From positions 1-41,485 of the forward strand of contig DATFGK010000105.1 of NCBI GenBank assembly GCA_035249485.1: a DNA stretch of 41,485 nucleotides. The letters run 5' to 3'. The DNA comes from Actinomycetota bacterium (GTDB lineage Bacteria > Actinomycetota > AC-67). The translations under genes and the position numbers were made by a program. The notes beneath the pieces were generated by a model. The model made no database searches. It worked only from the letters and a program-made list of their open reading frames with translations, and had not been told where the DNA came from. Positions within the stretch are counted from its first letter, which is position 1. Each line of letters starts with the position of its first letter. Below, one piece after another: positions 14,161-39,368 of this stretch.

Positions 14161-14170
14161 AGCGCGCGAA

Positions 14171-14199
14171 AGGATACCGCTCCCCAGGAGGAATATCCT
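14171..14199. promoter_or_regulatory. Nested imperfect palindrome in the 45-nt ilvD/lipoprotein divergent spacer
   Basis: AGGATAccgCTCCccaGGAGgaaTATCCT: outer arms AGGATA/TATCCT and inner arms CTCC/GGAG. It includes the AGGAGG Shine-Dalgarno of the plus-strand gene. Confidence 0.3.
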
Positions 14200-14205
14200 G
14201 AGCAC

Positions 14206-15171: not shown

Positions 15172-15175
15172 TCGC

Positions 15176-23470: not shown

Positions 23471-24612
23471 CGCCGCAGCCTCGCAACGCCGTCGACGATC
23501 GCCTCCGCGGCTCGGTCGATCTCCACTTCGGTCGTTCCGCGTCCGAGCGTCAGCCGGAGCGTTCCGCGCGCGAGATCGCGGGGGACGCCGAGCGCCGCGA
23601 GCACGTAGCTCGGCTCCGCCGCGCCCGAGGAGCATGCCGACCCCTGCGACGCCGCGACGCCGGCCGCGTCGAGCAGGAGGATCAGCGGCTCGCCGTCGAT
23701 CCCTTCGATGCACACGTGGAGGTTGTTCGGGAGCCGCTCGGCCGGGTGACCGTTCACGCGGACGCCGGGGATCCGTTCGCTCAGGTGCCGCTGGAGGCGG
23801 TCGCGGAGCGGGCCCACGGCGGACGCCCACACGTTGCGGTGCAACGCCGTCTCCTCGGCCGCCGCGCCGAAGCCGACGATCCCGGCGACGTTGTAGGTCC
23901 CCGAACGCACCTCACGCTCCTGACCACCGCCGTGCAGCAGCGGCTGGATCTTCACGCCGCGCCGCACGACGAGCGCTCCGACGCCTTTCGGGCCGCCGTG
24001 CTTGTGCGCGGCGATCGTGAGCAGATCGGCGATGCCCGCTTCGACGTTCAGCCATGGGACGGCCTGCACCGCGTCGGTGTGGAAGACGGCGCCGGCGTCG
24101 TGCGCGATCCGCGCCGCTTCGGCGACGGGCTGGATCGTGCCGACCTCGTTGTTCGCCCACATCACGCTGACCAGCGCGGTCTTGTCGTCGACGGCGGCTG
24201 CGAGCGCGTCGAGCCGTACGACGCCGTGCTCGTCGACACCGACCTCGCGCACCCGGAACCCCTGTCGCGCCAGCCACCGCGATGGATCGAGGACGGCGTG
24301 GTGCTCGATCGCCGTTACGACGATGCCGTCGCGCCCTTGCTCGCGCGCGTGCCAGGCGGCGCCTTTTATCGCGAGGTTGTCCGCCTCGGTTCCGCCCGAG
24401 GTGAAGACGATCTCGTCGGGGCGGGCGCCGACGGCCGCGGCGACGCGCTCGCGCGCCTCGTCGACGCCTTTGCGAGCCTCGCGGCCGGGCGCGTGCGCCG
24501 AGGACGCGTTGCCGAAGCGCTCGTCGAGGTAGGGAGCCATCGCTGCGCGTGCCGCCTCAGAAAGCGGCGTCGTGGCGGCGTGATCCAGGTAGATCGTGAG
24601 GGAAGCGCTCAT
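23467..24612 (-). CDS. iscS: Cysteine desulfurase (NifS/IscS class-V PLP enzyme)
   Basis: 381 aa, IYLDHAATTPL...FTSGGTEADNLAIKGA...AHKHGGPKGVGALVV...SQGSACSSG contains the PLP lysine and the active-site Cys loop. Confidence 0.92.
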   Translation of the reverse strand: MSASLTIYLDHAATTPLSEAARAAMAPYLDERFGNASSAHAPGREARKGVDEARERVAAAVGARPDEIVFTSGGTEADNLAIKGAAWHAREQGRDGIVVTAIEHHAVLDPSRWLARQGFRVREVGVDEHGVVRLDALAAAVDDKTALVSVMWANNEVGTIQPVAEAARIAHDAGAVFHTDAVQAVPWLNVEAGIADLLTIAAHKHGGPKGVGALVVRRGVKIQPLLHGGGQEREVRSGTYNVAGIVGFGAAAEETALHRNVWASAVGPLRDRLQRHLSERIPGVRVNGHPAERLPNNLHVCIEGIDGEPLILLLDAAGVAASQGSACSSGAAEPSYVLAALGVPRDLARGTLRLTLGRGTTEVEIDRAAEAIVDGVARLRR

Positions 24613-26778: not shown

Positions 26779-26908
26779 TGAAGGCACAACCCCTATCACA
26801 TCGCGGCGCTCCAAGCCGCTATCGACGAAGAGCGAAACGCGCTTGAGCGGAGCGACCAGGGCTGGTGAACAAGGACAACTCGGGCTTAGAGGAACGGCGG
26901 TGCGGGAA

Positions 26909-28510: not shown

Positions 28511-28540
28511 CCGGTCCTCCGAATCGAGCAAATGAGTTCT

Positions 28541-28592: not shown

Positions 28593-30026
28593 TCAGCGCT
28601 CCGCGAAGCGGCGGAACAAGCCTTCCGTGGCGTCGAGGCGCTGCCGGAGCTCCTCCTCGCCGGAGACCACGATCTGCGACGGTGCGGTCCCCCACCGTTC
28701 CAGCTCCTCGAAGAGCTCGATCAGCGGGGTCGGGTCGTCGGTCCGCGGCCGGATGTACACGAAGAACTGACCGTCATCCTCGGTTCCGGTGAGCTCGATC
28801 TGGAACTCCAGCGCACGCGGGACCGCCGACACGGCGGGGTACCGGAAGTCGAAGCGCACCGGGCGTCCGTTCAAACGCGTCCGGCGTTGCCAGGCGTTGC
28901 GCCGCACGCTCGGCCCGACGCGCGGCACGGTGCGGCCGCAGTTCGGGCAGGACTGCGTCGTGATGCCTCCGAGCGCGAGGTCGCCCGACCGCCACCGCGG
29001 CACGCCGCCGCCGCGGAAGCCGAGCGGCGTTACCGTGACTTCTCCCGGCGTCTGCTCGGCCAGCGGCGAGCCGGTGTCCGGAGACAGGACCTCGACCAGC
29101 TCGAGATCGGGGTAGGTGTGGAACCCGAACGTCTCGGTCTTGCCGACGGGGATCGCGCACTCGCCCCACAGCACGCGCCCCTCGGCGGGTCCGTAGGCTG
29201 CGGCGATCCTCGCGTTCACCGCCCCGGCGGCTGTGAGCGCCTCGCCGAGCTGCTCCCGTTCGGCCTTGGTCAGCGACCGGCCGACGGCGAGCACGACGTT
29301 GATCTCGCTCAGGTCCAGTGCGGCGTTGCGCGCAGCCTCGGGGAACTCCGCGACCTCGTCGGCGGGGATCGCCACCGCGGTCGGACGCGCCGCGTCGAAC
29401 GCGGCGAGCGCCCGAACGATATCGCCGCCCTCGCGACGCGTGTGGACCGCGCTCATCCCGACGCCGTGTGCCATGTAGAACACGCCCCAGAAGTCCAGCG
29501 TCGGCCCGAACGGGATCAGGTTGAGCAGGCGATCCTCGCGGTCGATCCCGGCGATGGTTGCCAGGCGGGCGCCGGCGCGCGCGAACAGCTCGAGATCGTC
29601 GCGCGTGTACGCGATGGGGATCGGCCCGCCGGGCCCGAACGCGATGTGCTGGTGGATCGGACGCGACGCTGCCTCGATCGCGAGCGCCTGCACGTCCTCT
29701 CCGCCGACGAGCCGCGCCGCGGCGACCCGCCGGAGCGTCGCGCGGTCGCTGAAGCGGCGCACTCCTTCGGCGGTCCCTTGGAGCACCATGCCCCGCGCGC
29801 CGTCGACGTTGCGGACGGGATCGAGCACGTCGGCCCGGGTCGCGGTCGGTACCTTGTTGAGCTCGTCGAGGCCCTTGAAGCTCCGCGCGTCGAGCCCGGC
29901 GGCCGACAGCCGTGCGCGCGCGGTGGGCACGTGCGCGAGCTGCATCTGCAGCAGCGTCTGACGCAGCAACGTGTCCTGCGTACGGCGGTAATCCTTCGGG
30001 GAGACCTGGTCCCAGGGGCGAGCCAC
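28593..30026 (-). CDS. PaaK/CapK-like adenylate-forming (ANL superfamily) protein with a degenerate P-loop and a Zn-ribbon-like insert
   Basis: 477 aa. The N-terminus, LLQMQLAHVPTARARLSAAGLDARSFKGLDELNKVPTATRADVL, and the overall layout resemble phenylacetate-CoA ligase/F390 synthetase/CapK. FGPGGPIPIAYTRDDLE sits where PaaK has SSGTTGKP..YT..D. Also contains SCPNCGRTVPR. GTG start at 30026. Confidence 0.7.
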   Translation of the reverse strand: MARPWDQVSPKDYRRTQDTLLRQTLLQMQLAHVPTARARLSAAGLDARSFKGLDELNKVPTATRADVLDPVRNVDGARGMVLQGTAEGVRRFSDRATLRRVAAARLVGGEDVQALAIEAASRPIHQHIAFGPGGPIPIAYTRDDLELFARAGARLATIAGIDREDRLLNLIPFGPTLDFWGVFYMAHGVGMSAVHTRREGGDIVRALAAFDAARPTAVAIPADEVAEFPEAARNAALDLSEINVVLAVGRSLTKAEREQLGEALTAAGAVNARIAAAYGPAEGRVLWGECAIPVGKTETFGFHTYPDLELVEVLSPDTGSPLAEQTPGEVTVTPLGFRGGGVPRWRSGDLALGGITTQSCPNCGRTVPRVGPSVRRNAWQRRTRLNGRPVRFDFRYPAVSAVPRALEFQIELTGTEDDGQFFVYIRPRTDDPTPLIELFEELERWGTAPSQIVVSGEEELRQRLDATEGLFRRFAER

Positions 30027-30032
30027 GGCGCC

Positions 30033-30039
30033 TATTCTA
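30033..30039. promoter_or_regulatory. Overlapping face-to-face -10 candidates (minus TAGAAT, plus TATTCT) in the divergent spacer
   Basis: cctATTCTAc: the minus-strand TAGAAT ends 7 nt before the GTG start at 30026, which implies a leaderless mRNA. The plus-strand TATTCT could serve the methyltransferase/GH57 operon. Confidence 0.35.
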
Positions 30040-30112
30040 CGGACGGGCCGGGTCCGCGCTTGCCGCTCGGGAATGGCTCCTCGAGGGCCTGCCGACTACC
30101 ATTCCGAGCCCC

Positions 30113-30856
30113 GTGGACGACACCGCACCGGCATCCGACCTCATCCTCACCGGCGAAAGAACCCTCCCCGGCATCCCCGAGGAGAACTACTGGTTCCAGC
30201 GCCACGTGGTCGCCTACCGGCACGCGGCGGATCGCATCGCCGGGATGAACGTTCTCGACGCGGGCTGCGGTGAGGGGTACGGGTCGGCGATGCTCGCCGA
30301 ACACGCCGCGTCGGTCGTCGGCGTCGACCTTGAGCGCGACGTCATCGAGCACGCGGCCGAGCGCTACCCGAACGTTCGCTTCCAGACCGGCGACCTCGCC
30401 ACGCTCGGCTTCCCAGACGCATCGTTCGACGCCGTCGTGACGTTCCAGGTGATCGAGCACATGCAGAGCCCGCGCGGCTTCCTCACGGAGTGCGGGCGCG
30501 TGTTGCGGCCCGGCGGGCTGCTCGTGCTCTCGACGCCGAACCGGTTGACGTTCTCGCCGGCAGGCGTACGCAACCCGTTCCATACCGTCGAGTTCGCGCC
30601 GGCCGAGCTGCGTTCGGTTCTGGAAGACCGATTCGTGGTTCAGCTCCTTGGAGGGACGTTCCACCGGTGGCGGCTCGACCTCGTCGAGCGGATGATGCGC
30701 GCCAGTCTGCCCGAGCGGCTCATCTCGCAACCGGTACCCGAGTGGCCGGCGTGGCTCCGGCGCGTCGTCACGGCAGTTACGCCGCGCGACTTCGTGATCC
30801 GCGAGTCTCACGTCGAGCGTTCGCTCGATCTGATCGCCGTGGCCCGCCGGCGATAA
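30113..30856 (+). CDS. Class I SAM-dependent methyltransferase (Rv3030-like)
   Basis: MNVLDAGCGEGYGSAMLAEHAASVVGVDLE is SAM motif I and LRPGGLLVLSTPN is motif III. The start is uncertain: GTG at 30113 is the first plausible in-frame start past the divergent gene. It ends 10 nt before the GH57 gene. Confidence 0.78.
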   Translation: MDDTAPASDLILTGERTLPGIPEENYWFQRHVVAYRHAADRIAGMNVLDAGCGEGYGSAMLAEHAASVVGVDLERDVIEHAAERYPNVRFQTGDLATLGFPDASFDAVVTFQVIEHMQSPRGFLTECGRVLRPGGLLVLSTPNRLTFSPAGVRNPFHTVEFAPAELRSVLEDRFVVQLLGGTFHRWRLDLVERMMRASLPERLISQPVPEWPAWLRRVVTAVTPRDFVIRESHVERSLDLIAVARRR

Positions 30857-30866
30857 CGCCGAGCCG

Positions 30867-32405
30867 ATGGGCGTCTTCTCGCTCGTCCTCCACACCCATC
30901 TGCCGTACGTGCGGCGCAACGGCGTCTGGCCGTCGGGCGAGGACTTCTTCCACCAGGCGGCGACCGAGAGCTACCTGCCGATGCTGGAGACGATCGAACG
31001 GATCGCGGAGGGTCACGCGGACGGCCCCGCGCTGACGGTCGGCATCACGCCGCTGATCGCACACCAGATGGAAGACCCGTACATGCTCCGCGAGCTGACG
31101 CTGTACCTCGGACGCTACGACCTGCGGGCGCTGTGGCAGGTTGCCAACTACGACGGCGTCTACACCGAGGAGTTCAAGGACATCGCCGGCTTCTACGCGC
31201 GCTTCGCCCGACGCCAGCTCGCGCGCCTCGAGTCGCTGCCCGGCGGGATCGCCGGCGGGTTCGGAACGCTCGAGCGTGCCGGGGCGATCGAGATCGCCGG
31301 CGGCCCGGCGTCCCACCCGGTCCTGCCCGAGATCGGCGAGCCGGCGGTGATGCGCGCGCAGGTCTTCCACGGCATCGCCGAACACGAGCGTCACTTCGGC
31401 CACAAACCGAAGGCGATGTGGATGCCCGAGTGTGCCTACCGCCCGGCGCTCGGGATCGAGGAGCTGCTCGCCGAGGCGGGCATCACCCACGTCGTCGTGG
31501 ACGGCCCGACGATGCTCCGCTCGGACGGGCCCGGTGCGACGTTCGCGCCGCGTCGGATCGGAGCGACCGACGTCGCGGCGTTCTCGCGCAACCTCGACGT
31601 CACCTACCGCGTGTGGTCGCCGACCGGCGGGTACCCGGGCAACAAGTGGTACCGCGAGTACTTCGCGTACGACATGACCGCGGGCTTCAAGAACTGGCGC
31701 GTCACCTCGACGAAGACGCCGATCGCGGGCAAGAAGCCCTACGACCCGGCGCGCGCGATCGAGCGCACCGAGAAGGACGCCGCCGACTTCGTGCAGCTGC
31801 TCGACGACTCGCTGACGGCGCACGAGGAGCGCACCGGCTCCGAGGGAGTAGTCGTCGCCTGTTACGACACCGAGCTCTTCGGCCATTGGTGGTTCGAGGG
31901 GCCGACGTTCCTCCAGAACGTGTACGCGATGCTCGAGAACCATCCGCGCGTGCGCGCGATGTCGCTCGGCCGCGCGCTCGAGGCGGTCCCGCCCTCACGC
32001 AGCGTCGAGCTGCAGGAGGGCTCGTGGGGATTCCGCAAAGACCTCCGATCGTGGATCGCGCCGGAGACCGAGGAGATGTGGCGTCTGCTCGCCGAAGCCG
32101 AATCCGAGACGATCCGGATCGCGCGCAAGTACACCGACCCAGACGCCGCACAGGAGCGCGCACTCGCACAGCTCGTCCGCGAGCTGTTCCTGCTCCAGTC
32201 GAGCGACTGGCCGTTCATGGTCCTCCGCGGCAAGAACGCGGGCTACGCGCGCGAGCGGTTCGATGGACACCGTGAACGGTGGGGGCGGCTCGTCGAGGCG
32301 CTTCTCCGCAGGACGCCGGCGGGGCCGCTCGACCGCCTGACCGGCGAGCTTGCCGAGCTCGACAACGCGTTCCCGGAGCTCGGTTACAAGCTGTTGATCT
32401 CGTAG
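30867..32405 (+). CDS. GH57-family alpha-glucan branching enzyme (Rv3031-like)
   Basis: 512 aa, MGVFSLVLHTHLPYVRRNG.WP.GE...HPVLP...MWMPECAY...CYDTELFGHWWFEGP is the GH57 signature (HTHLPY, catalytic E in PECA, D in YDTELFGHWW). Confidence 0.9.
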   Translation: MGVFSLVLHTHLPYVRRNGVWPSGEDFFHQAATESYLPMLETIERIAEGHADGPALTVGITPLIAHQMEDPYMLRELTLYLGRYDLRALWQVANYDGVYTEEFKDIAGFYARFARRQLARLESLPGGIAGGFGTLERAGAIEIAGGPASHPVLPEIGEPAVMRAQVFHGIAEHERHFGHKPKAMWMPECAYRPALGIEELLAEAGITHVVVDGPTMLRSDGPGATFAPRRIGATDVAAFSRNLDVTYRVWSPTGGYPGNKWYREYFAYDMTAGFKNWRVTSTKTPIAGKKPYDPARAIERTEKDAADFVQLLDDSLTAHEERTGSEGVVVACYDTELFGHWWFEGPTFLQNVYAMLENHPRVRAMSLGRALEAVPPSRSVELQEGSWGFRKDLRSWIAPETEEMWRLLAEAESETIRIARKYTDPDAAQERALAQLVRELFLLQSSDWPFMVLRGKNAGYARERFDGHRERWGRLVEALLRRTPAGPLDRLTGELAELDNAFPELGYKLLIS

Positions 32406-33289
32406 GGCCGCGGCCACGGGTTCGGCTTGCAGGTCCGGTCGCCCGTGGTGAGACCCTTCGACTGCTGCATCATCACCGGCGCGTAGGCGCCGTCCTTCGG
32501 GCAGCCACGGTGGTGCTGGCCGAGCGTGTGGCCGACCTCGTGGTTGACGAGCATCTGCCGGTAGACGGGCACCGCTCCCGGCCAGTACTTCGAGCCGGTG
32601 AACCAGCGGTCCGAGTTGAACACGACCTCCCGGTAGCCGGCGCACGAGTAGTAGAAGTTCACGCTGAGCCCGATCAGCTGCATGCAACGCTTCTCCGCGG
32701 CGGCCGGCTTCCGGAGCCCGAGGAGCAGCGCCCCCTCGGGGTCGTACCGGAACCGAACCTCCCCGCTCGCGATCCAGGAGCGCTCGTCGCACAGGATCGA
32801 GAGCAGGTCCGACACGAATCTGGCCGGCGTGGTCGCGAGGCCGTCCTCGACGAGCACCCGGAACTTGATGAGCCTGGCGCCGGGACTGCCGCAGGTCTTG
32901 CTCGGCTGGGAGGGACCGCTGCTGGCCAGGAAGGACGGGGAGGCAGCCTTCTGGACCGGGATCTTGCTCGGTGCCGGGGACGGCGTGACGGACGCGAGCT
33001 GGGTCGGCGTCGCCGGCGCGGAGGGCGGGAGCAGCGCGACGGCCTGGTTCTGCGGCCTGCTCGCGTCGGCGAGAAGCGCGTTCCCGGCTCCCCCGCCGAA
33101 GCCGATCAGCAAACCGAACAGTGCGCCGAGATAGATCGGCCACCAACCCAACCGGAAACGACTCAGATCGAACCCCCCTGGAGCGAACCCGGAAAGGATA
33201 TTCAGGCGGGAGCCTTCGAGCGACTCGCCTGAACGATGCTGGAGTTTTGCCCGGTACCTGCCGCGCGTGACACGATGCCGCGAGTTCAA
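32384..33289 (-). CDS. Membrane-anchored HExxH zinc-metallopeptidase-like protein (DUF3152-like)
   Basis: TM anchor LGWWPIYLGALFGLLIGFGG, a Pro/Ser/Ala linker, then a C-terminal domain with MLVNHEVGHTLGQHH. There is no in-frame ATG, and the start is uncertain (TTG at 33289, or a downstream CTG/TTG). The 3' end overlaps the GH57 3' end by 22 nt. Confidence 0.65.
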   Translation of the reverse strand: MNSRHRVTRGRYRAKLQHRSGESLEGSRLNILSGFAPGGFDLSRFRLGWWPIYLGALFGLLIGFGGGAGNALLADASRPQNQAVALLPPSAPATPTQLASVTPSPAPSKIPVQKAASPSFLASSGPSQPSKTCGSPGARLIKFRVLVEDGLATTPARFVSDLLSILCDERSWIASGEVRFRYDPEGALLLGLRKPAAAEKRCMQLIGLSVNFYYSCAGYREVVFNSDRWFTGSKYWPGAVPVYRQMLVNHEVGHTLGQHHRGCPKDGAYAPVMMQQSKGLTTGDRTCKPNPWPRPYEINSL

Positions 33290-33300
33290 GGGGCCAGCTC

Positions 33301-34575
33301 ATGCGGATCCTCATCCTTTCGTGGGAGTACCCGCCGCGCATCGTCGGCGGCTTGGGGAAGCACGTCCATCGCCTCGCGACGGCCCTCGCCGACGCCGGAC
33401 ACACGATCCACGTGGTGACCCGAGACCATCCCGACGCCCCGGCCGAGGAGGTCGTCGACGGCGTCCACGTGGTGCGCGTCGGCGAGTACCCGCCGATCGT
33501 CCCGTTCGACGAGCTGATCCCCTGGGTGCTCCAGTTCAACGTGGGCGTGCTCGAGCGCGCGACGAAGATCCTGCTCGAGGAGGAGGTCGACCTCGTCCAC
33601 GCGCACGACTGGCTGGTCGCGTACGCAGCGGCGGGCGTGAAGAACCTGTTCGACGTGCCCCTTGTCTCAACGGTCCACGCAACGGAGTACGGTCGCCACC
33701 AGGGCTACCTGCCCGGCCCGATGAACAAGCTGATCCACCAGATCGAGTGGTGGCTCACCTACGAGTCCCGCCGCACGATCACGTGCTCGCGCTACATGCA
33801 CGACCAGATCGAAGAGATCTTCCAGCTGCCGCCCGAAAAGCTCGACGTGATCTCCAACGGCGTCGACCTCGAGGCGGTCCACAAGCCCGAGGGCGTCGAG
33901 GAGTTCCGCGCGAAGCTGCTCGACCCCGGCGACAAGATGATCTTCTTCGCCGGCCGGCTCGAGTACGAGAAGGGAGTGCAGACGATGCTCGACGCGCTCC
34001 CGCTCGTGAACGCGGAGGTTCCGGTCCGGTTCTTCGTCGCGGGCGTCGGCACGCACGAGCAGGCGTTGCGTGAGCACGTGGAGCGGGACGGGCTCGACGC
34101 GCACGTGGAGTTCCTCGGCTTCGTACCCGACGAGGAGCTGGCCATGTACTACGCGGCAGCCGACCTCGCGGTGGTGCCGTCGCTCTACGAGCCGTTCGGG
34201 ATGGTGGCGCTCGAGACGATGGCGGCCGGGACACCGTGCATCGCGGCCGACACGGGCGGCCTGCGCGAGCTCGTCGTGCACGACGCGACCGGGCTGCGGT
34301 TCTCGCCGGGCGACCCGGCGTCGCTCGCCGGGGCGATCCTGCGACTGCTGACCGACACGCGACTCGACCGCCGGCTCACGCTCGATGCGCGGCGGATGCT
34401 CAACGATCAGTTCTCCTGGCGCTCGATCGCGGACCGGACCGTCGACGTCTACAGACGAGCGATCGAGGAGGAGCGCAAGCTCCGCCGGACCCACCGCCGC
34501 GATGAGCGCGCACCGCTCCGGGTGATCCTCGGCCGGTCGGAGATCCTCGGATTCGCCGACGAAAGCGCTGGCTAG
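33301..34575 (+). CDS. GT4-family alpha-glucosyltransferase (Rv3032-like / glycogen-synthase-like)
   Basis: 424 aa, MRILILSWEYPPRIVGGLGKHVHRLA... and the EX7E region PSLYEPFGMVALETMAAGTPCIAADTGGLRELV. AAGGGG lies upstream of the ATG. Confidence 0.9.
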   Translation: MRILILSWEYPPRIVGGLGKHVHRLATALADAGHTIHVVTRDHPDAPAEEVVDGVHVVRVGEYPPIVPFDELIPWVLQFNVGVLERATKILLEEEVDLVHAHDWLVAYAAAGVKNLFDVPLVSTVHATEYGRHQGYLPGPMNKLIHQIEWWLTYESRRTITCSRYMHDQIEEIFQLPPEKLDVISNGVDLEAVHKPEGVEEFRAKLLDPGDKMIFFAGRLEYEKGVQTMLDALPLVNAEVPVRFFVAGVGTHEQALREHVERDGLDAHVEFLGFVPDEELAMYYAAADLAVVPSLYEPFGMVALETMAAGTPCIAADTGGLRELVVHDATGLRFSPGDPASLAGAILRLLTDTRLDRRLTLDARRMLNDQFSWRSIADRTVDVYRRAIEEERKLRRTHRRDERAPLRVILGRSEILGFADESAG

Positions 34576-34644
34576 GACCTCGATCGGAGATCCGGGACCC
34601 AAAGCTGCTCAAGCCGTGGCCGGGTTCGGGCGACAATCCCAAGG

Positions 34645-34800
34645 ATGATCGCTTTCCTCGCCGGCTTGTGCCTGAAGGGCGACGGCAACGTCTGTCCGCC
34701 GGGCAGCACCGAGATCCCCGCGATCTACGCGCTCTCGGGAGGCTTCCTCTTCCTCGCGGTGCTCGGCTTCGCGTGGCTCGGCTACCGCAGCAAGCGCTGA
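34645..34800 (+). CDS. Candidate 51-aa small membrane peptide (not in the ORF track)
   Basis: MIAFLAGLCLKGDGNVCPPGSTEIPAIYALSGGFLFLAVLGFAWLGYRSKR. Third codon positions are almost all G/C, as in genuine genes here. It has one clear TM helix with a basic anchor. The RBS is poor (aagg abuts the ATG). Confidence 0.35.
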   Translation: MIAFLAGLCLKGDGNVCPPGSTEIPAIYALSGGFLFLAVLGFAWLGYRSKR

Positions 34801-34803
34801 ACC

Positions 34804-35490
34804 CTAGAACCGATAGCCGAACCGCTCCAGGTCCGGACGGAAGACCTGCTCAACGATCTTCCGCGCCTCGTCCGTGTAGTACGAGCGATAGTCGGCCGCG
34901 CGCGGCGTGGGGTTGATGTTGGCGAGCTCCATCCCCGTCGGCGCCCCGATCTTGGCGAGCACCTCGTCGAGGTCCTCGTGCAGCCGTTCGAAACGCATGA
35001 TGTGATCGACCCGCTTCAGGTAGCGCTCGTACATGTGCCGCGGACGGACCGCCCTCAACCGCTCCATCCGCCCGCCGGGCAGGTAGCGGTCCTTCACCCA
35101 GTCGCTGAACGAGAGGTCCGCGGCTCGCCGCACGTCTTCGAGCGCGCCGGGCTTCTTGTGCAGGAACGAGTTCGGGTCGTCGACGAGCTTGGAATACGTC
35201 GTCTGGGTCTTGACGAACAGGGAGACCAATGAGTCGAACGGGTTCCGGACCGCGCATACCTTGAACAGGGCCGCGATGTCCTGCGCGGAGACCAGCCCGT
35301 AATAGAGGAGGTCGGGGATCGTGCTGTGCTTCGAGTCGACGAGCAGCTTCCCGTCGTCGTCGAGGATGTCCTTCCAGGGAACGCGGGTTCCCTCGAGATG
35401 AGGCACGATCACGCCGTACGCGATCGAGGTACACCCGGTGCGCGGCGACATCACGAACAGGAACCGATACGGGTGCGAGATGAACGCCAT
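34804..35490 (-). CDS. Carbohydrate-type sulfotransferase (Sulfotransfer_2/3-like)
   Basis: 228 aa. FVMSPRTGCTSIAY resembles the 5'-phosphosulfate-binding loop (P-[KR]-T-G-[ST]-T-S). AVRNPFDSLVSLF resembles the 3'-phosphate-binding R-[DN]-P-x-x-R-x-x-S motif. The start was moved to the ATG at 35490. Confidence 0.78.
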   Translation of the reverse strand: MAFISHPYRFLFVMSPRTGCTSIAYGVIVPHLEGTRVPWKDILDDDGKLLVDSKHSTIPDLLYYGLVSAQDIAALFKVCAVRNPFDSLVSLFVKTQTTYSKLVDDPNSFLHKKPGALEDVRRAADLSFSDWVKDRYLPGGRMERLRAVRPRHMYERYLKRVDHIMRFERLHEDLDEVLAKIGAPTGMELANINPTPRAADYRSYYTDEARKIVEQVFRPDLERFGYRF

Positions 35491-35498
35491 CGCGCGCC

Positions 35499-36236
35499 CT
35501 AGGTTCCCCTCTGTACGGCCGCCCCGCGGGACTTGAGCACCCGCGCCGGCACTCCGCCGACGATCGACCGCGGCGGCACGTCGCGGTTGACGAGCGCGTG
35601 CGACGCGATCACCGAGCCTTCCCCGACCGTGACGCCGCGCAGGATCGTCGACTTCTCGCCGATCCAGCAATCGCGTCCGACGACCACGGGCGACTTCACG
35701 ATCCCTTGCTTCTTGATCGTGACGTTGAGGTCGTCGTACTTGTGGTCGAAGTCGCAGACGTAGATCCAGTCCGCGAAGATGCAGTCGTCCCCGATGTCGA
35801 TGTCGAGATAGCAGTTGATCGTGTTCTTTGCTCCGAACACGACCTTGTTTCCGATCCGCAGATTCCCTTCGTGGCATCGGATCGCGTTGCCCTTCCCGAT
35901 CCACACCCACCGTCCGAGGGTCAGTCGCCCGTAGCCGCGTCGCGCGTACACCTCGACCTTCGGTCCGAGAAACACGAACCCTTCCGTCTTGATGTGGGGG
36001 TGGGTGACCTTGAACCTCAGGAAGCGGATCCCGAGGACCCAGTAGCGCCAGGTATACAGGCGATGGCTCCAGATGAATCGAAGCGTCCGCCCGACGCGGA
36101 CCGGGAAAGACCGCGCGACCGGTGGCGGAGGAGGGACGGGCGCCAGCTCGGGCCCGCGGCTCGCCACGACGGCGTCGGCTTCGGGCACGACCGGCTCGTC
36201 GCCGGCGCCGGTATGGAAGGGCCTGGGATCCTCCAT
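35499..36236 (-). CDS. Left-handed beta-helix (hexapeptide-repeat) acyl/acetyltransferase (Rv3034c-like)
   Basis: IGNKVVFGAKNTINCYLDIDIGDDCIFADWIYVCDFDH...VVVGRDCWIGEKSTILRGVTVGEGSVIASHALVNRDVPPRSIVGGVPARVL are hexapeptide repeats. ATG at 36236 is 11 nt after the upstream stop. Confidence 0.8.
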   Translation of the reverse strand: MEDPRPFHTGAGDEPVVPEADAVVASRGPELAPVPPPPPVARSFPVRVGRTLRFIWSHRLYTWRYWVLGIRFLRFKVTHPHIKTEGFVFLGPKVEVYARRGYGRLTLGRWVWIGKGNAIRCHEGNLRIGNKVVFGAKNTINCYLDIDIGDDCIFADWIYVCDFDHKYDDLNVTIKKQGIVKSPVVVGRDCWIGEKSTILRGVTVGEGSVIASHALVNRDVPPRSIVGGVPARVLKSRGAAVQRGT

Positions 36237-36247
36237 CGGGTGCGAGC

Positions 36248-37201
36248 CTACCGCTCGGCCGACGGCTTCTCCGCGTAGAAGAGCAGGTTGTAGAAAAGGG
36301 GCTTCGGGACGAGCCGGCGCGTGATCGTGTCGTCCATCCGGTAAAGCCGGAGATAATTCCTGTACGCCCACCACGCCCACTTCTCGCCGAGCAGCCCCGG
36401 AGCCGAGAGCGCCTCGATCGTCCTCACGCTCCAGCCGAAGAACCCGGAGATGAACTCCTCGGTGCGGATCCGCAGCGGCCCGAACCCCGTGTCTTGGAGC
36501 CAGCGCTCGACCATGTGGGGGTGGAACTCGTGCAGGTCGACGTGCTTCTCGAGCGCTGCGGCGGGGTCATCGTGCCCCGTGACGCTTCGATCGGGGTTGA
36601 GCAGTCCTGGGCGCACGCGCCCGACGGCCTTGAACGCCGTCGCGGTCGCCCGGCGCGCCAGCTTGTTGACCGCGTGACCTATCCGGGTCGGCTCCCCGGC
36701 GATCACCAGCGCGCCTCCCGGCTTGAGCACCCGATAGCACTCGGCGAGCGCCGCCGGCACGTCGGGCACGTGGTGGAGCACCGCGTGACCAACCACCAGA
36801 TCGAAGGTCCCCGTTTTGTACGGGAGCGTCTCCGCGTCGGCCGCGCGCCCCTCGAGGTTCTTCAAGCCGACGAGCCGCGCGTTCCGCTGACACACCTCGA
36901 CCATCCCCGGCGAGATGTCGGTGGCGAACGCCTGCCGCACCAACCCTGCCTGCCACAGGTTGACGATGAAGAAGCCGGTGCCGCACCCGATCTCGAGGAC
37001 CTTCCCGTACTTCCGTTCGGGCGCGACCTTGGTGAACTTCTCCTTCGCGTAGGAGATGCAGCGCTCGTCGAACGAGATCGACCATTTGTCGTCGTACTGG
37101 GTCGCCTCCCAGTCGTGGTAGAGGATGTTTCGTGTCTTGGCGTCGAGCTCCGTCAGCTCTCCGTCGTCCACGGAGGGGAGGGAGGTAGGGGCCGTCGTCA
37201 T
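36248..37201 (-). CDS. Class I SAM-dependent methyltransferase (Rv3037c-like)
   Basis: 317 aa. KVLEIGCGTGFFIVNLWQAG is motif I, followed by LKPGGALVIAGEP. The extended C-terminal domain is typical of the long actinobacterial methyltransferases in this locus. Confidence 0.85.
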   Translation of the reverse strand: MTTAPTSLPSVDDGELTELDAKTRNILYHDWEATQYDDKWSISFDERCISYAKEKFTKVAPERKYGKVLEIGCGTGFFIVNLWQAGLVRQAFATDISPGMVEVCQRNARLVGLKNLEGRAADAETLPYKTGTFDLVVGHAVLHHVPDVPAALAECYRVLKPGGALVIAGEPTRIGHAVNKLARRATATAFKAVGRVRPGLLNPDRSVTGHDDPAAALEKHVDLHEFHPHMVERWLQDTGFGPLRIRTEEFISGFFGWSVRTIEALSAPGLLGEKWAWWAYRNYLRLYRMDDTITRRLVPKPLFYNLLFYAEKPSAER

Positions 37202-37361: not shown

Positions 37362-38537
37362 GTGAAGCGCGCAATTCTCATCGCCGTTACGGCCACGCTC
37401 TTCGCGGGACTCTTTTCGCTCCCGGCCCACGCCGCCGCGTGCACCAACGACAACTTCGCCGACGCGACGCTCATCAACACCCTCGATCATTCCGACCAGT
37501 GCGACAGTTCCGCCGCGACGACGGAGACCGGTGAACCGATGACGAGCTGCGCCGTCGGCAAGAATGTCGGCAAGACGACGTGGTGGAAGTACACACCCGA
37601 CGGGTCCTCGGCCCGGCCGCTGCACATCAAGGTCAACACCTACGCCAGTCCCTTCAACACGCTGATCGCCTTGTGGCGGCAGGACGGCAGCGGCTTCGCC
37701 GGCTTGACGCCGGTTGCCTGCAACGACCAGCTTGGGATCCACAAGACCTCTCGAGTCACGCAGGCGCTCACCATCGGGAAGACGTACTACATCCAGGCCG
37801 GCGGCGTGAGTCAGGCCGGGGGCACATTGAACCTCCGAGTGAAGCCCCGCATCTGGCACGTGGGCGTCGTCCGCGGTGACGACTGGTACGTCAACCGTGG
37901 CCACGACGGGCTCGCGGAATACCACTTCGTCTATGGGAAGAGCACGGACCAGTTCCTCGCCGGCGACATCATCGGCCACGGCGTTCACACGCCGTGGGTG
38001 CGTCGCGGCAACCTGTTCATCCTCAACGATTGGTTCGACAGCGGCTTCGTAAAGCAGTTCTCATACGGCAACTCGACGGACAAGGCGCTCGTCGGTGACT
38101 GGAACGGCGATGAGGTCATGACACCGGTGGTCCGCCGTGGCGGCACCTGGTACTTCAACAACGGTTACGACGGCTCGCACGAGTTGAGCATCGCGTACGG
38201 CAACTCGAGCGACGTGCCTCTGGTCGGGGACTGGAACGGCGACGGGATCTGGACGCCCGGCGTGCGGCGAGGGAACATCTTCTACCTCAACAACGGGTTC
38301 GACGGCGCCCACGACATCGCGGCCTTCGCGTACGGCATGACGTCGGACGTGGTGGTCGTGGGCGACTGGAACGCCGACGGCAAGATGACGCCCGGAGTCG
38401 TGCGCGGCAGCGGCTGGTACCTAAGCAACGGCTTCACCGGGGTGCAGGACATCCCGTCATTCGCGTACGGGAATTCGACCGACAAGAAGATCGTCGGAGA
38501 CTGGAACGGCATCGTCGAATCGGACGGTGCCGGCTGA
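37362..38537 (+). CDS. Secreted protein: N-terminal beta-sandwich domain (NDNFADA...TETGEP...WWKYTP...FNTLIALW...CNDQ...TYYIQAGG) plus five FG-GAP-like repeats
   Basis: Signal peptide KRAILIAVTATLFAGLFSLPAHAAA with a GTG start after GGGGG. The C-terminal 227 aa carry the same repeat family as 24637-28510. Confidence 0.8.
   Translation: MKRAILIAVTATLFAGLFSLPAHAAACTNDNFADATLINTLDHSDQCDSSAATTETGEPMTSCAVGKNVGKTTWWKYTPDGSSARPLHIKVNTYASPFNTLIALWRQDGSGFAGLTPVACNDQLGIHKTSRVTQALTIGKTYYIQAGGVSQAGGTLNLRVKPRIWHVGVVRGDDWYVNRGHDGLAEYHFVYGKSTDQFLAGDIIGHGVHTPWVRRGNLFILNDWFDSGFVKQFSYGNSTDKALVGDWNGDEVMTPVVRRGGTWYFNNGYDGSHELSIAYGNSSDVPLVGDWNGDGIWTPGVRRGNIFYLNNGFDGAHDIAAFAYGMTSDVVVVGDWNADGKMTPGVVRGSGWYLSNGFTGVQDIPSFAYGNSTDKKIVGDWNGIVESDGAG
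37854..38534 (+). repeat. Five tandem ~44-aa coding repeats of the GDWNGDG/RRGNxFYLNN/YGNSxD family
   Basis: VGVVRGDDWYVNRGHDG...YGKSTDQFLAGDIIGHG... recurs five times and ends with an orphan GDWNG motif. Confidence 0.8.
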
Positions 38538-38582: not shown

Positions 38583-39368
38583 CTATCGTCCCGAGAACGT
38601 CGCCTTGCCGGGACCGCTCTCGAGGAACGAGTGCATCCCCGTCTTCTGATCCTCCGTCGAGAACAGATTCACGAACAGCTCGCGCTCGATCAGAAGGCCG
38701 TTCTGAAGATCGGTCTGCAGTCCCCGATTGATCGCGATCTTCGCCGCGCGCAGTGCGACCGTCGGCCCCCTCGCGTACCGGGCCGCGATCTCGACGGCCT
38801 TTCCGTAGGTCTGGTCCTGAGGCACGACGACATCGACGAGTCCGAGATCGAGCGCCTCGACGCATTCGATGAACCGCCCCGAGAAGATGATGTCCTTCGC
38901 CTTCGCCGGGCCGACCAGGCGCGGCAGACGCTGCGTACCGCCGGCGCCGGGGATGATCCCGAGCAGGATCTCCGGCTGACCGACCTTGGCGTTGTCGGCC
39001 ATGACCCGGAAGTCGCACGCGAGCGACAGCTCGCACCCGCCGCCGAGCGCGAAGCCGGTGATCGCCGCGATGACCACCTTGGGGATCTCCTCGACCTGCG
39101 TGAAGACGGCCTGCAGACCGCCCATCCGGTCCATCATGTCGATCGGAGAGGCTTCGGCCATCTGCTTGATGTCCGCGCCGGCCGCGAAGATCTTGTCGCC
39201 CCCGAAAACGACGACGGCTCTCACGCGGTCGTCGGTGGCCGCCTCGCGGGCGGCAACCTCGAGCTCCGAGACGACCTGATCGTTGATCGCGTTCATCGGC
39301 GGCCGGTCGAGCCGGATCGTGCCGACACCGTTCGACTCGTCGACGAGGAGGTTGACGAACTCACCCAC
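38583..39368 (-). CDS. Enoyl-CoA hydratase/isomerase (crotonase family)
   Basis: 261 aa, GVGTIRLDRPPMNAIN...VVVFGGDKIFAAGADIKQM...AAITGFALGGGCELSLACD is the crotonase oxyanion-hole signature. GTG start. Confidence 0.9.
   Translation of the reverse strand: MGEFVNLLVDESNGVGTIRLDRPPMNAINDQVVSELEVAAREAATDDRVRAVVVFGGDKIFAAGADIKQMAEASPIDMMDRMGGLQAVFTQVEEIPKVVIAAITGFALGGGCELSLACDFRVMADNAKVGQPEILLGIIPGAGGTQRLPRLVGPAKAKDIIFSGRFIECVEALDLGLVDVVVPQDQTYGKAVEIAARYARGPTVALRAAKIAINRGLQTDLQNGLLIERELFVNLFSTEDQKTGMHSFLESGPGKATFSGR

What the first reader, a model, noticed from the sequence alone, without database searches (positions are those of the whole stretch)
28593..37201. MGLP-like polymethylated alpha-glucan locus with extra, non-mycobacterial tailoring functions
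The set below matches what I recall of the M. tuberculosis genes implicated in 6-O-methylglucose lipopolysaccharide synthesis (Rv3030, Rv3031, Rv3032, Rv3034c, Rv3037c), and in the same relative order:
- SAM methyltransferase (30113-30856);
- GH57 branching enzyme (30867-32405);
- GT4 alpha-glucosyltransferase (33301-34575);
- hexapeptide acyltransferase (35499-36236);
- long SAM methyltransferase (36248-37201).

This version additionally encodes:
- a carbohydrate-type sulfotransferase;
- a PaaK/CapK-like adenylate-forming protein, divergently transcribed from the methyltransferase-GH57 operon;
- a membrane-anchored HExxH protein on the opposite strand between GH57 and GT4;
- a possible 51-aa membrane peptide.

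This predicts a methylated and acylated alpha-glucan oligomer or polymer that may also be sulfated. To my knowledge that chemistry has not been described for polymethylated polysaccharides.
Basis: partly seen in the sequence, partly recalled or inferred. Interest (0 to 1): 0.7.

Follow-up and report, generated by a model that had tools for sequence, protein, structure and literature searches.

The report
Methylglucan gene cluster with added sulfotransferase
An uncultured actinobacterium carries the same gene cluster, in the same chromosomal position, that mycobacteria use to make their methylated glucose lipopolysaccharide, and a small subgroup of these bacteria has added a sulfate-transferring enzyme to one of its operons, which suggests, but does not prove, a sulfated version of that sugar polymer.

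Summary
All nine ORFs exist at or near the stated coordinates. Pfam and NCBIfam identities and third-codon-position GC (GC3) frame analysis support the calls.

**Orthology.** The five core genes are MT, GH57, GT4, hexapeptide acyltransferase and MT. They are bidirectional best in-locus matches of the genes at the Rv3030–Rv3037c position in Mycobacterium, Rhodococcus and Nocardia genomes. They share the same order, strands and flanks (ligA–mnmA–iscS upstream, echA downstream). This is the positional ortholog of the MGLP locus in a deep-branching, uncultured Actinomycetota lineage.

**The four "extras" are not equivalent:**
- **Sulfotransferase (34804–35490, −).** It has intact PAPS-binding motifs and is under purifying selection. 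It starts 8 nt after the acyltransferase stop. All seven contexts with ≥62 % identical orthologs show the same position. Two sister genomes have the identical locus without it, and all ≤51 % homologs whose context could be read lie outside this locus, mostly beside other glycosyltransferase or sulfotransferase genes. It is a recent, clade-specific recruitment.
- **PaaK-like protein.** It has a PaaK fold but a degenerate P-loop. Its linkage is explained by macro-synteny with iscS.
- **DUF3152.** It is a membrane-anchored metzincin-like protein, probably extracytoplasmic.
- **51-aa ORF.** It is conserved but of unknown function.

Sulfation of the methylglucan is plausible (about 0.45) but unproven. 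This is a new variant of a known system, of moderate interest.

The parts
30113..30856 (+). SAM-dependent methyltransferase MT1, positional ortholog of the Rv3030-type (6-O-) methyltransferase. It lies 10 nt upstream of the GH57 gene.
   Evidence: Pfam Methyltransf_11, E = 1e-25. It is 44-49 % identical to the MT immediately upstream of GH57 in Mycobacterium, Rhodococcus and Nocardia loci. The reciprocal hit scores 200 bits against 50 bits for MT2.
30867..32405 (+). GH57 branching-enzyme-type protein (Rv3031 position).
   Evidence: Pfam GH57 plus BE_C. PDB 3N8T at E = 7e-98. It is 36-40 % identical to the Actinomycetes locus genes.
32384..33289 (-). DUF3152 protein: metzincin-like HExxHxxGxxH motif, N-terminal hydrophobic anchor and conserved cysteines. 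It is probably extracytoplasmic. The start codon is uncertain. It is a lineage-specific insert between GH57 and GT4.
   Evidence: Pfam DUF3152, E = 2e-27. Alignment A4 has invariant H250, E251, H254, G257 and H260 and several invariant Cys. It is present in L001, L085-L087, L089 and L172, and absent from all 80 GTDB loci.
33301..34575 (+). GT4 alpha-glucosyltransferase (Rv3032 position).
   Evidence: Pfam Glycos_transf_1 and Glyco_transf_4. It is 38-44 % identical (about 250-290 bits) to the GT4 downstream of GH57 in Mycobacteriales loci, against 96 bits to the GlgM structure 6TVP.
34645..34800 (+). 51-aa small membrane protein (CxK..CPP motif, one hydrophobic helix, basic C-terminus). Function unknown.
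   Evidence: GC3 of 0.92 in frame. Conserved as a 51-52-aa ORF in L001, L089, L085, L172, L092, L093 and a JGI contig. dN/dS is 0.3-0.8.
34804..35490 (-). PAPS-type sulfotransferase (Sulfotransfer_2), 228 aa. It is the last gene of the MT2-acyltransferase-sulfotransferase operon and a subclade-specific insertion.
   Evidence: Pfam PF03567, 33 bits against a cutoff of 22. The start lies 8 nt after the acyltransferase stop. In 70 sequences, PRTGCT, KH and RNPxDS are invariant or nearly so. AF2 pLDDT is 95, and every Foldseek top hit is a sulfotransferase, although the matches are weak. dN/dS is 0.19-0.26. All orthologs at 62 % identity or more occupy this position. It is absent from the sister loci L085 and L172.
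35499..36236 (-). Hexapeptide-repeat acyltransferase (Rv3034c position).
   Evidence: Pfam Hexapep. NCBIfam WbbJ/WcaF/maltose O-acetyltransferase-like matches. It is 49-58 % identical to the locus acyltransferase in Actinomycetes.
36248..37201 (-). SAM-dependent methyltransferase MT2 (Rv3037c position). It lies 11 nt upstream of the acyltransferase gene.
   Evidence: Pfam Methyltransf_11, E = 3e-27. It is 44-50 % identical to the MT next to echA in Actinomycetes loci. The reciprocal hit scores 268 bits.
28593..30026 (-). PaaK-fold adenylate-forming-like protein with a degenerate P-loop, transcribed divergently from MT1 (86-nt gap). It is a conserved neighbour and probably not specific to the glucan pathway.
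   Evidence: Foldseek PaaK1 2Y27 at E = 1e-26. The PaaK motif SSGTTG aligns to AFGPGG. The family shows GPGG and no invariant C-terminal Lys. The distant homolog in L091 sits directly upstream of iscS.
22391..24612 (-). mnmA and iscS, the upstream synteny anchors shared with mycobacterial loci.
   Evidence: Pfam. tblastn finds them in the same order and orientation in L016, L032, L044, L049 and others.
38583..39368 (-). Enoyl-CoA hydratase, the downstream synteny anchor (echA17 position).
   Evidence: Pfam ECH_1, E = 1e-69. It is adjacent to MT2 in the Actinomycetes loci.
37362..38537 (+). 391-aa secreted repeat protein inserted between MT2 and echA in the same subclade that carries the sulfotransferase.
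   Evidence: Signal-peptide-like N-terminus. It is present in L001 and L089 and absent from L085 and L172, where MT2 abuts echA.

Best explanation
The region is the positional ortholog, in an uncultured deep-branching Actinomycetota lineage, of the mycobacterial methylglucose-lipopolysaccharide (MGLP) locus Rv3030-Rv3037c.

Inferred pathway, from the mycobacterial assignments:
- The GT4 elongates an alpha-1,4-glucan.
- The GH57 enzyme makes the alpha-1,6 linkage or branch.
- MT1 and MT2 O-methylate the glucan.
- The hexapeptide transferase O-acylates it.

In one shallow subclade, a cytoplasmic PAPS-dependent Sulfotransfer_2 enzyme was inserted as the last gene of the MT2-acyltransferase operon. 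Its relatives sit in polysaccharide gene clusters rich in glycosyltransferases and other sulfotransferases. The most likely consequence is O-sulfation of the methylglucan or of its oligosaccharide precursor. This would add a fixed negative charge, conceivably in the way succinyl esters do in mycobacterial MGLP.

What is shown and what is inferred:
- Shown: gene identities, orthology and synteny, operon-like spacing, clade-restricted presence, conserved PAPS-binding motifs and purifying selection.
- Inferred: the product is a polymethylated glucan, and it is the acceptor of the sulfotransferase.

The PaaK-like, DUF3152 and 51-aa genes are lineage-specific neighbours. Their participation is not supported (PaaK-like, DUF3152) or unknown (51-aa ORF).
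For: Orthology:
- All five core proteins hit the corresponding genes in Mycobacterium, Mycolicibacterium, Rhodococcus and Nocardia loci, with the same order and strands, flanked by ligA-mnmA-iscS and echA.
- Reverse searches from L044, L032, L016 and L024 return the same window genes, with MT1 and MT2 clearly distinguished.
- The wider window follows the order serA-ilvC-ilvB-ilvD-gatB-gatA-ligA.
- The composition of the Mtb cluster comes from PMC2674218 and PMC4555173.
- MT1 precedes GH57 in 51 of 53 actinobacterial loci (the other two are truncated at GH57). No MT1 homolog lies within 10 kb of GH57 in any of the 27 non-actinobacterial loci.

Sulfotransferase:
- The Pfam match is above threshold.
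- The ATG lies 8 nt after the acyltransferase stop, and MT2 to acyltransferase is 11 nt. In L089 the two genes overlap by 1 nt.
- The 5'-PSB (PRTGCT), KH and 3'-PB (RNPxDS) motifs are invariant or nearly so.
- The AF2 model is confident, and the Foldseek top hits are exclusively PAPS sulfotransferases.
- dN/dS is about 0.2.
- All seven contexts with orthologs at 62 % identity or more show acyltransferase-sulfotransferase | 51-aa | GT4.
- The sister loci L085 and L172 are otherwise identical but lack the gene.
- Homologs at 35-48 % identity lie outside the locus. The annotated ones (L003, L088, the contig) sit in clusters with glycosyltransferases, Wzx or ABC transporters and further sulfotransferases, and L090 sits beside a sugar epimerase. 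Among 78 further metagenome loci none has a locus-type neighbour, and 25 carry a distant GT4-family gene within 6 kb.
Against: - No biochemical or chemical data exist, and the organism is uncultured.
- Only contigs are available, so PAPS synthesis genes (cysC/cysNC) and the MGLP primer genes (gpgS, gpgP, octT) could not be looked for.
- Insertion at the 3' end of an operon, between convergent genes, is also where a selectively neutral hitchhiker would be tolerated.
- The sulfotransferase evolves two to three times faster than its neighbours: 62-72 % against 87-92 % amino-acid identity. This may mean weaker constraint.
- A second unrelated gene (the 391-aa secreted protein) entered the locus in the same subclade, and other relatives carry different inserts. 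The locus therefore tolerates unrelated insertions.
- GH57 identity to mycobacterial orthologs (36-40 %) is barely above that to Chloroflexota GH57 (34 %). Orthology therefore rests on synteny.
- Foldseek matches of the sulfotransferase model are weak (E about 1e-2, TM about 0.45).
Confidence: 0.5

Rival explanations
1. The sulfotransferase is a hitchhiker. It was inserted at a permissive site at the end of the MT2-acyltransferase operon, but it sulfates an unrelated acceptor, such as a surface glycan, a glycolipid or a small metabolite. The locus product is an ordinary, unsulfated MGLP-like glucan.
For: - Its relatives at 51 % identity or less whose context could be read lie outside this locus. 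The annotated ones sit in glycosyltransferase- and sulfotransferase-rich polysaccharide clusters, two of them with a Wzx flippase or ABC transporter.
- The locus accumulates unrelated inserts: the 391-aa secreted protein in the same subclade, and a GH36 melibiase, LemA/DUF3137, a MarR-like gene and unknown ORFs in L086 and L087.
- The sulfotransferase diverges faster than its neighbours.
Against: - The 8-nt spacing (a 1-nt overlap in L089) to the acyltransferase gene is maintained in every ortholog examined.
- The gene is retained under purifying selection in that exact position across lineages with synonymous divergence dS of about 0.8-0.9.
- No other glycan-synthesis genes lie in the 20-kb neighbourhoods.
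Confidence: 0.33
2. In this lineage the conserved MT-GH57-GT4-acyltransferase-MT genes do not make an MGLP-like polymethylated lipopolysaccharide. They make a different alpha-glucan or glucoside, or the methyltransferases act on other substrates. The MGLP analogy would then fail at the product level.
For: - MGLP has been demonstrated chemically only in mycobacteria and Nocardia (PMC9883506).
- The core proteins are only 36-54 % identical to the mycobacterial ones.
- The primer genes could not be checked.
- GH57-GT4 pairs without methyltransferases occur outside Actinomycetota, for example in L047.
Against: - The whole five-gene set, its order and strands, the 10-nt MT1-GH57 spacing and the chromosomal position are conserved from Mycobacterium to this lineage. 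This argues for a conserved pathway.
Confidence: 0.12
3. The PaaK-like enzyme (acyl activation), the DUF3152 protein, the 51-aa peptide and the sulfotransferase together form an extended tailoring system for the glucan.
For: - The PaaK-like and DUF3152 genes are conserved next to or inside the locus throughout the lineage.
- PaaK-like and GH57 proteins share contigs in at least 27 cases (matching contig lengths).
Against: - A distant PaaK-like homolog sits directly upstream of iscS-mnmA on a contig that ends before the glucan-gene position (L091). The co-occurrence with GH57 therefore reflects macro-synteny.
- Its P-loop is degenerate and no conserved catalytic Lys was found.
- DUF3152 looks like an extracytoplasmic metzincin.
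- The extras have different phyletic ages.
Confidence: 0.05

Closest known systems
Mycobacterium tuberculosis MGLP biosynthetic cluster Rv3030-Rv3037c (Rv3030 MT, Rv3031 GH57, Rv3032 GT4, Rv3034c acyltransferase, Rv3037c MT)
   Same: - It has the same five enzyme families in the same order and on the same strands.
- It occupies the same chromosomal position, between mnmA-iscS and echA.
- The in-locus best hits are bidirectional against Mycobacterium, Mycolicibacterium, Rhodococcus and Nocardia loci.
   Different: - Identity is only 36-54 %.
- The etfAB-type genes between iscS and MT1 are replaced by Amidase_2, Big_5 and PaaK-like genes.
- A DUF3152 gene is inserted antisense between GH57 and GT4.
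- A 51-aa ORF follows GT4.
- A sulfotransferase is appended to the MT2-acyltransferase operon.
- None of these extras lies within 10 kb in the 80 GTDB loci.
- The product has not been characterised.
Bacterial PAPS-dependent polysaccharide sulfotransferases in extracellular polysaccharide clusters (e.g. the synechan xss cluster of Synechocystis, PMC8205485; sulfated Vibrio capsule, PMC11641403)
   Same: - It is a cytoplasmic PAPS-type sulfotransferase encoded inside a glycan biosynthesis locus.
- The 43-46 % identical relatives of the window enzyme whose contigs were annotated sit in clusters with glycosyltransferases, further sulfotransferases and a Wzx flippase or ABC transporter.
   Different: - Here the host locus encodes what is, in mycobacteria, an intracellular lipid-binding methylglucan, and it has no exporter or flippase.
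- No sequence comparison with those characterised enzymes was run.
Mycobacterial Stf0 (trehalose 2-sulfotransferase of sulfolipid-1 synthesis)
   Same: Both are actinobacterial PAPS-dependent O-sulfation of an alpha-glucoside (from my own knowledge).
   Different: - By my recollection Stf0 belongs to a different Pfam family from Sulfotransfer_2, but no sequence comparison was run.
- The genomic context differs.
- The acceptor is a disaccharide that becomes a surface glycolipid.
PaaK-type phenylacetate-CoA ligases (ANL superfamily; PDB 2Y27, 4R1L)
   Same: It has the same overall two-domain fold (Foldseek E = 1e-26) and a conserved CPxCGR segment.
   Different: - The P-loop SSGTTG is replaced by GPGG.
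- No invariant C-terminal lysine was found.
- The Pfam AMP-binding score is below the gathering threshold.

Membership tests
Mycobacterial MGLP locus (Rv3030-Rv3037c) | SAM methyltransferase immediately upstream of, and co-directional with, a GH57 branching-type enzyme | tested here: met
   The gap is 10 nt. The same pairing occurs in 51 of 53 actinobacterial loci, and no MT1 homolog lies within 10 kb of GH57 in any of 27 non-actinobacterial GH57 loci.
Mycobacterial MGLP locus (Rv3030-Rv3037c) | Rv3032-type GT4 alpha-1,4-glucosyltransferase downstream of GH57 | tested here: met
   It scores about 250-290 bits against the locus GT4 of Mycobacteriales, versus 96 bits against GlgM 6TVP. A DUF3152 gene is intercalated on the opposite strand.
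Mycobacterial MGLP locus (Rv3030-Rv3037c) | Hexapeptide acyltransferase and a second, longer SAM methyltransferase on the opposite strand | tested here: met
   The acyltransferase is 49-58 % and MT2 44-50 % identical to the locus genes, with reciprocal hits.
Mycobacterial MGLP locus (Rv3030-Rv3037c) | Same chromosomal position (mnmA-iscS upstream, echA downstream) | tested here: met
   Examples are L016, L032, L044, L049 and L059.
Mycobacterial MGLP locus (Rv3030-Rv3037c) | Genome also encodes the primer pathway (GpgS, GpgP, OctT) | not testable with these tools
   Only a 41-kb contig and 20-kb pieces of related contigs are available.
Mycobacterial MGLP locus (Rv3030-Rv3037c) | Product is a 6-O-methylglucose-containing acylated lipopolysaccharide | not testable with these tools
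   This needs chemistry.
PAPS-dependent sulfotransferases (Pfam Sulfotransfer_2, PF03567) | Profile match above the curated threshold | tested here: met
   33.3 bits against a cutoff of 22. PF03567 is precomputed for nearly all 120 homologs.
PAPS-dependent sulfotransferases (Pfam Sulfotransfer_2, PF03567) | 5'-phosphosulfate-binding loop (PKxGxT[ST]-like) and 3'-phosphate-binding motif (RxP...S) | tested here: met
   P16, R17, T18, G19, C20, T21 and R82, N83, P84, D86, S87 are invariant or more than 90 % conserved in 70 sequences.
PAPS-dependent sulfotransferases (Pfam Sulfotransfer_2, PF03567) | Sulfotransferase fold | tested here: inconclusive
   AF2 pLDDT is 95. All top Foldseek PDB hits are PAPS sulfotransferases, but with E about 1e-2 and TM 0.38-0.46. 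A sequence search of the PDB finds nothing.
PAPS-dependent sulfotransferases (Pfam Sulfotransfer_2, PF03567) | PAPS-dependent sulfate transfer, and the identity of the acceptor | not testable with these tools
   This needs an enzyme assay.
PaaK-type adenylate-forming enzymes (ANL superfamily) | Two-domain PaaK fold | tested here: met
   Foldseek 2Y27 at E = 1e-26, TM 0.61-0.68.
PaaK-type adenylate-forming enzymes (ANL superfamily) | Ser/Thr/Gly-rich P-loop (SSGTTGxP) | tested here: not met
   It aligns to AFGPGGPIP. The family consensus is GPGG(R/P)IP.
PaaK-type adenylate-forming enzymes (ANL superfamily) | Pfam AMP-binding match above the gathering score | tested here: not met
   22.1 bits against 29.9. 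NCBIfam PaaK models score 38-72 bits against cutoffs of 646 and 700.
Metzincin-like zinc metallopeptidases (for the DUF3152 protein) | HExxHxxGxxH zinc-binding motif | tested here: met
   HEVGHTLGQHH at 250-260, with invariant H, E, H, G and H in six orthologs. Peptidase activity was not tested.

The most novel reading that the evidence does not exclude
A subclade of uncultured soil Actinomycetota makes a sulfated polymethylated alpha-glucan. This would be an intracellular, lipid-binding MGLP-type polysaccharide whose negative charge comes from sulfate esters, installed by a sulfotransferase recruited from polysaccharide-sulfation gene clusters. It would be the first sulfated member of the polymethylated polysaccharides and a rare example of a sulfated intracellular bacterial glycan.
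Probability: 0.35. Interest if true: 0.65.

Novelty: new variant of a known kind. Interest (0 to 1): 0.45.

Why it matters
**Age of the locus.** The MGLP gene set and its chromosomal position predate the Mycobacteriales. They are conserved across Actinomycetota, including lineages never examined chemically. That widens where polymethylated polysaccharides should be looked for.

**A possible new modification.** The clade-restricted sulfotransferase, if it acts on the glucan, would add a new chemical modification to this class. It would also offer a natural experiment on how charge (sulfate versus succinate) affects the proposed acyl-CoA-sequestering role.

**Testability.** The enzyme is small (228 aa), soluble and easily synthesised. 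The prediction can therefore be tested directly with PAPS and MGLP or malto-oligosaccharide acceptors, even though the organism is uncultured.

Tried and rejected
1. **Sequence search of the PDB with the sulfotransferase.** It returned no meaningful hit.
2. **NCBIfam.** It has no specific model for any of the locus proteins. All hits are far below their cutoffs.
3. **GTDB genome scan with a GH57 alignment.** It gave Mycobacteriales and other Actinomycetes loci but not M. tuberculosis itself and not the window's own lineage. Close relatives were reached through exact-protein look-ups instead.
4. **Base composition as a sign of recent transfer of the sulfotransferase.** GC3 of 0.91 equals that of its neighbours. 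The lower overall GC comes from amino-acid composition. There is no signal.
5. **Co-occurrence of PaaK-like and GH57 proteins on at least 27 contigs.** I first read this as a functional link. I rejected it after L091 showed a PaaK-like homolog beside iscS-mnmA, so macro-synteny explains the co-occurrence.
6. **The 252-aa ORF in L087 at the sulfotransferase's position.** I considered it as a divergent sulfotransferase. It has no similarity and no Pfam hit.
7. **Promoter and terminator scans.** Counts were at background level.
8. **Rfam and tRNA scans.** They found nothing in the window.
9. **The sulfotransferase as a pseudogene.** I rejected this: the reading frame is intact, the motifs are conserved and dN/dS is about 0.2.

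Full report
**Observation**

The window is a 41.5-kb contig of about 68 % GC. Its proteins match only metagenome-assembled 'Actinomycetota bacterium' records.

| Gene | Coordinates (strand) | Main evidence |
|---|---|---|
| PaaK-like | 28593-30026 (−) | weak AMP-binding match |
| MT1 | 30113-30856 (+) | Methyltransf_11 |
| GH57 + BE_C | 30867-32405 (+) | archaeal and Thermus branching-enzyme structures at E = 1e-78 to 7e-98 |
| DUF3152 | 32384-33289 (−) | HEVGH motif |
| GT4 | 33301-34575 (+) | Glycos_transf_1 |
| 51-aa ORF | 34645-34800 (+) | GC3 of 0.92 |
| Hexapeptide acyltransferase | 35499-36236 (−) | Hexapep |
| MT2 | 36248-37201 (−) | Methyltransf_11 |

- The sulfotransferase needed refinement. 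The mechanical ORF 34804-35910 overlaps the acyltransferase gene.
- The frame plot and the sequence put the true start at the ATG at 35490. This gives 228 aa, 8 nt after the acyltransferase stop, with a purine-rich stretch just upstream.
- The gaps are 11 nt (MT2 to acyltransferase), 8 nt (acyltransferase to sulfotransferase) and 10 nt (MT1 to GH57).

**Orthology with the mycobacterial MGLP locus**

- The literature defines the M. tuberculosis cluster as Rv3030 (MT), Rv3031 (GH57 branching-type), Rv3032 (alpha-1,4-glucosyltransferase), Rv3034c (acetyltransferase) and Rv3037c (MT) (PMC2674218, PMC4555173).
- A GH57-anchored scan of one genome per GTDB species returned 80 loci with 10-kb flanks.
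- tblastn of the window proteins against these loci shows one pattern in Mycobacterium/Mycolicibacterium (L032, L044, L049), Rhodococcus (L016, L033, L059) and Nocardia (L024, L083). The pattern is ligA-mnmA-iscS, about 4 kb, MT1-GH57-GT4, then acyltransferase (−), MT2 (−) and echA (−).
- Typical identities in those Mycobacteriales loci are about 47 % (MT1), 37 % (GH57), 41 % (GT4), 53 % (acyltransferase) and 46 % (MT2); across all the actinobacterial loci the ranges are a few points wider.
- The window has the same order, strands and flanks.
- Reverse searches from four of those loci return the same window genes. MT1 and MT2 are clearly distinguished (200 against 50 bits; 268 bits).
- The GT4 is much closer to the locus GT4 of Mycobacteriales (about 250-290 bits) than to the GlgM structure (96 bits).
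- The rest of the window (serA, ilvC, ilvB, ilvD, gatB, gatA, ligA, mnmA, iscS) follows the order I know from the H37Rv Rv2996c-Rv3025c region (own knowledge).
- MT1 precedes GH57 in 51 of 53 actinobacterial loci (the other two contigs start at GH57). No MT1 homolog lies within 10 kb of GH57 in any of the 27 non-actinobacterial loci.
- I conclude that this is the positional ortholog of the MGLP locus. GH57 sequence similarity alone would not show it (36-40 % to Actinomycetes against 34 % to Chloroflexota), so the case rests on synteny.

**The sulfotransferase**

Evidence that it is a working enzyme:
- Pfam Sulfotransfer_2 scores above threshold.
- In a 70-sequence alignment the PAPS-binding elements are invariant or nearly so: P16-R17-T18-G-C20-T21 (5'-phosphosulfate loop), K54-H55, and R82-N83-P84-x-D86-S87 (3'-phosphate motif).
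- The AlphaFold model is confident (pLDDT 95). Every top Foldseek PDB hit is a PAPS sulfotransferase, although the matches are weak (E about 1e-2, TM about 0.45).
- It has no predicted membrane segment.
- dN/dS against orthologs is 0.19-0.26.

Distribution:
- Every ortholog at 62 % identity or more whose context could be read lies between the acyltransferase and the 51-aa ORF/GT4. These are the window, L001/L002, L089, a JGI contig, L092 and L093.
- Two sister genomes whose GH57 is 74-76 % identical (L085, L172) have the identical locus, including the PaaK-like, DUF3152 and 52-aa genes. In them the small ORF abuts the acyltransferase directly and no sulfotransferase is present.
- More distant relatives (L086, L087) and all 80 GTDB loci also lack it.
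- Homologs at 51 % identity or less lie elsewhere. The contigs that were annotated show clusters with glycosyltransferases, a Wzx flippase or ABC transporter, APH-like kinases and further sulfotransferases, and one sits beside a sugar epimerase. Among 78 further metagenome loci none has a locus-type neighbour, and 25 carry a distant GT4-family gene within 6 kb.
- The gene is therefore a single, recent, clade-restricted recruitment of a glycan-type sulfotransferase into the 3' end of the MT2-acyltransferase operon.
- GC3 is indistinguishable from that of its neighbours.

**The other 'extras'**

- **PaaK-like protein.** It has a convincing PaaK fold (Foldseek 2Y27, E = 1e-26). However, the ATP P-loop SSGTTG aligns to AFGPGG, the family consensus is GPGG, and no invariant C-terminal lysine exists.
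- **PaaK-like linkage.** Its family of about 170 proteins is confined to uncultured Actinomycetota and shares contigs with GH57 in at least 27 cases. Yet a 32 % identical homolog sits directly upstream of iscS-mnmA-ligA, next to etfA, in L091. In the window it shares its strand with Big_5, amidase, iscS and mnmA. The linkage is best explained by conserved macro-synteny, not by a role in glucan tailoring.
- **DUF3152.** It carries an invariant HExxHxxGxxH motif, a Met-rich segment, several invariant cysteines and an N-terminal hydrophobic segment. This is a membrane-anchored, probably extracytoplasmic metzincin-like protein. It is conserved between GH57 and GT4 across the lineage but absent from Actinomycetes loci.
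- **51-aa ORF.** It is real by conservation (CxK..CPP motif, one helix) and predates the sulfotransferase. Its role is unknown.
- **391-aa secreted repeat protein.** It entered between MT2 and echA in the same subclade as the sulfotransferase. L086 and L087 carry other inserts. The locus therefore tolerates unrelated insertions.

**Mechanism**

- The best-supported reading is that the core genes build an MGLP-type acylated, O-methylated alpha-1,4-glucan, as in mycobacteria. This is inferred from orthology.
- In the sulfotransferase-bearing subclade, the enzyme is co-expressed with MT2 and the acyltransferase, and uses PAPS to O-sulfate the glucan or a precursor. This is inferred from operon structure and strict positional conservation.
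- A speculative corollary is that sulfate supplies the negative charge that succinyl esters supply in mycobacterial MGLP.
- My estimates: orthology about 0.9, an active sulfotransferase about 0.85, and the glucan as acceptor about 0.45.
- The main rival is a hitchhiking sulfotransferase with another acceptor. It is supported by the family's contexts in other polysaccharide clusters, by the locus's tolerance of insertions, and by the faster divergence of the sulfotransferase (62-72 % against 87-92 % for its neighbours).

**Novelty**

- No paper in the searched library combines polymethylated polysaccharides with a sulfotransferase. The only paper that combines methylglucose lipopolysaccharide with 'sulfated' is a review of mannose derivatives as anti-infective agents.
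- The sulfated bacterial polysaccharides turned up by the literature search are extracellular (e.g. PMC8205485, PMC11641403).
- MGLP itself has been shown chemically in mycobacteria and Nocardia (PMC9883506).
- This is a new variant of a known system, predicted from gene context only.

**Limits**

- PAPS synthesis genes and the gpgS/gpgP/octT primer genes could not be sought, because only contigs are available.
- M. tuberculosis itself was not among the retrieved loci.
- All functional statements are inferences.

Noticed in passing
L005, L006, L012, L013, L018, L025, L027, L036, L043, L065, L071 (genome-contig loci): The MT1-GH57-(GT4)-acyltransferase-MT2-echA core occurs well outside Mycobacteriales. 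Examples are Candidatus Nanopelagicales (L005, without an adjacent GT4), Geodermatophilaceae, and many Pseudonocardiales (Amycolatopsis, Prauserella, Kutzneria, Lentzea, Actinokineospora, Umezawaea, Streptoalloteichus). MGLP-type polysaccharides may be far more widespread in Actinomycetota than the chemistry done so far indicates.
   Followed up: partly
window 37362-38537 (+): A 391-aa protein with a signal-peptide-like N-terminus and 'VGDWNGDG'-type repeats lies between MT2 and echA. It is present only in the subclade that also has the sulfotransferase (window, L001, L089). It is absent from L085 and L172, where MT2 abuts echA. So two independent insertions entered the locus in the same lineage.
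   Followed up: partly
window 24637-28531 (-) and 37362-38537 (+): The Amidase_2 protein, the Big_5 protein and the 391-aa protein cross-hit each other in tblastn (L001 rows). They appear to share a repeated C-terminal module, which suggests a family of secreted cell-wall-associated proteins around the locus.
   Followed up: no
L087:14140-14898 (-) and L087:6999-9212 (+); L086:12217-13469 and 16239-18160: More distant relatives carry different inserts in the same inter-operon slots. L087 has an unknown 252-aa ORF exactly where the sulfotransferase sits, plus a GH36 melibiase between the PaaK-like gene and MT1. L086 has DUF3137/LemA genes, a MarR-like gene and unknown ORFs. The locus behaves as an insertion hot spot.
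   Followed up: partly
L091:3890-5299 (+): A 32 % identical homolog of the PaaK-like protein lies 61 nt upstream of iscS-mnmA and near etfA in another Actinomycetota MAG. A PaaK-fold protein with a degenerate P-loop and a conserved CPxC, persistently next to a cysteine desulfurase and a tRNA 2-thiouridylase, might have a sulfur-relay or tRNA-related role.
   Followed up: no
window 32384-32405 and 33289-33301: The 3' ends of GH57 and DUF3152 overlap by 22 nt (convergent). The annotated TTG start of DUF3152 lies only 11 nt from the GT4 start (divergent). Either the DUF3152 start is further downstream (orthologs are called at 194-275 aa), or the two promoters lie inside each other's coding regions.
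   Followed up: partly
L003:4650-19037: A 46 % identical sulfotransferase homolog lies in a cluster with at least seven sulfotransferase genes of three Pfam families, APH-like kinases, GT2 and GT4 glycosyltransferases and an ABC transporter. It looks like a heavily sulfated surface glycan locus in an uncultured bacterium.
   Followed up: no
window 34804-35490 compared with L093 and L001: The sulfotransferase diverges much faster than its neighbours. In L093 it is 62 % identical while the acyltransferase, the 51-aa ORF and GT4 are 87-92 % identical. dN/dS is about twice that of the core enzymes.
   Followed up: partly
window 12472-15252 (-): The ilvD-type ORF is 926 aa, but its Pfam matches start only at residue 406. 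A high-GC3 ORF on the opposite strand (14017-15171) overlaps the upstream part. The true gene structure there was not resolved.
   Followed up: no
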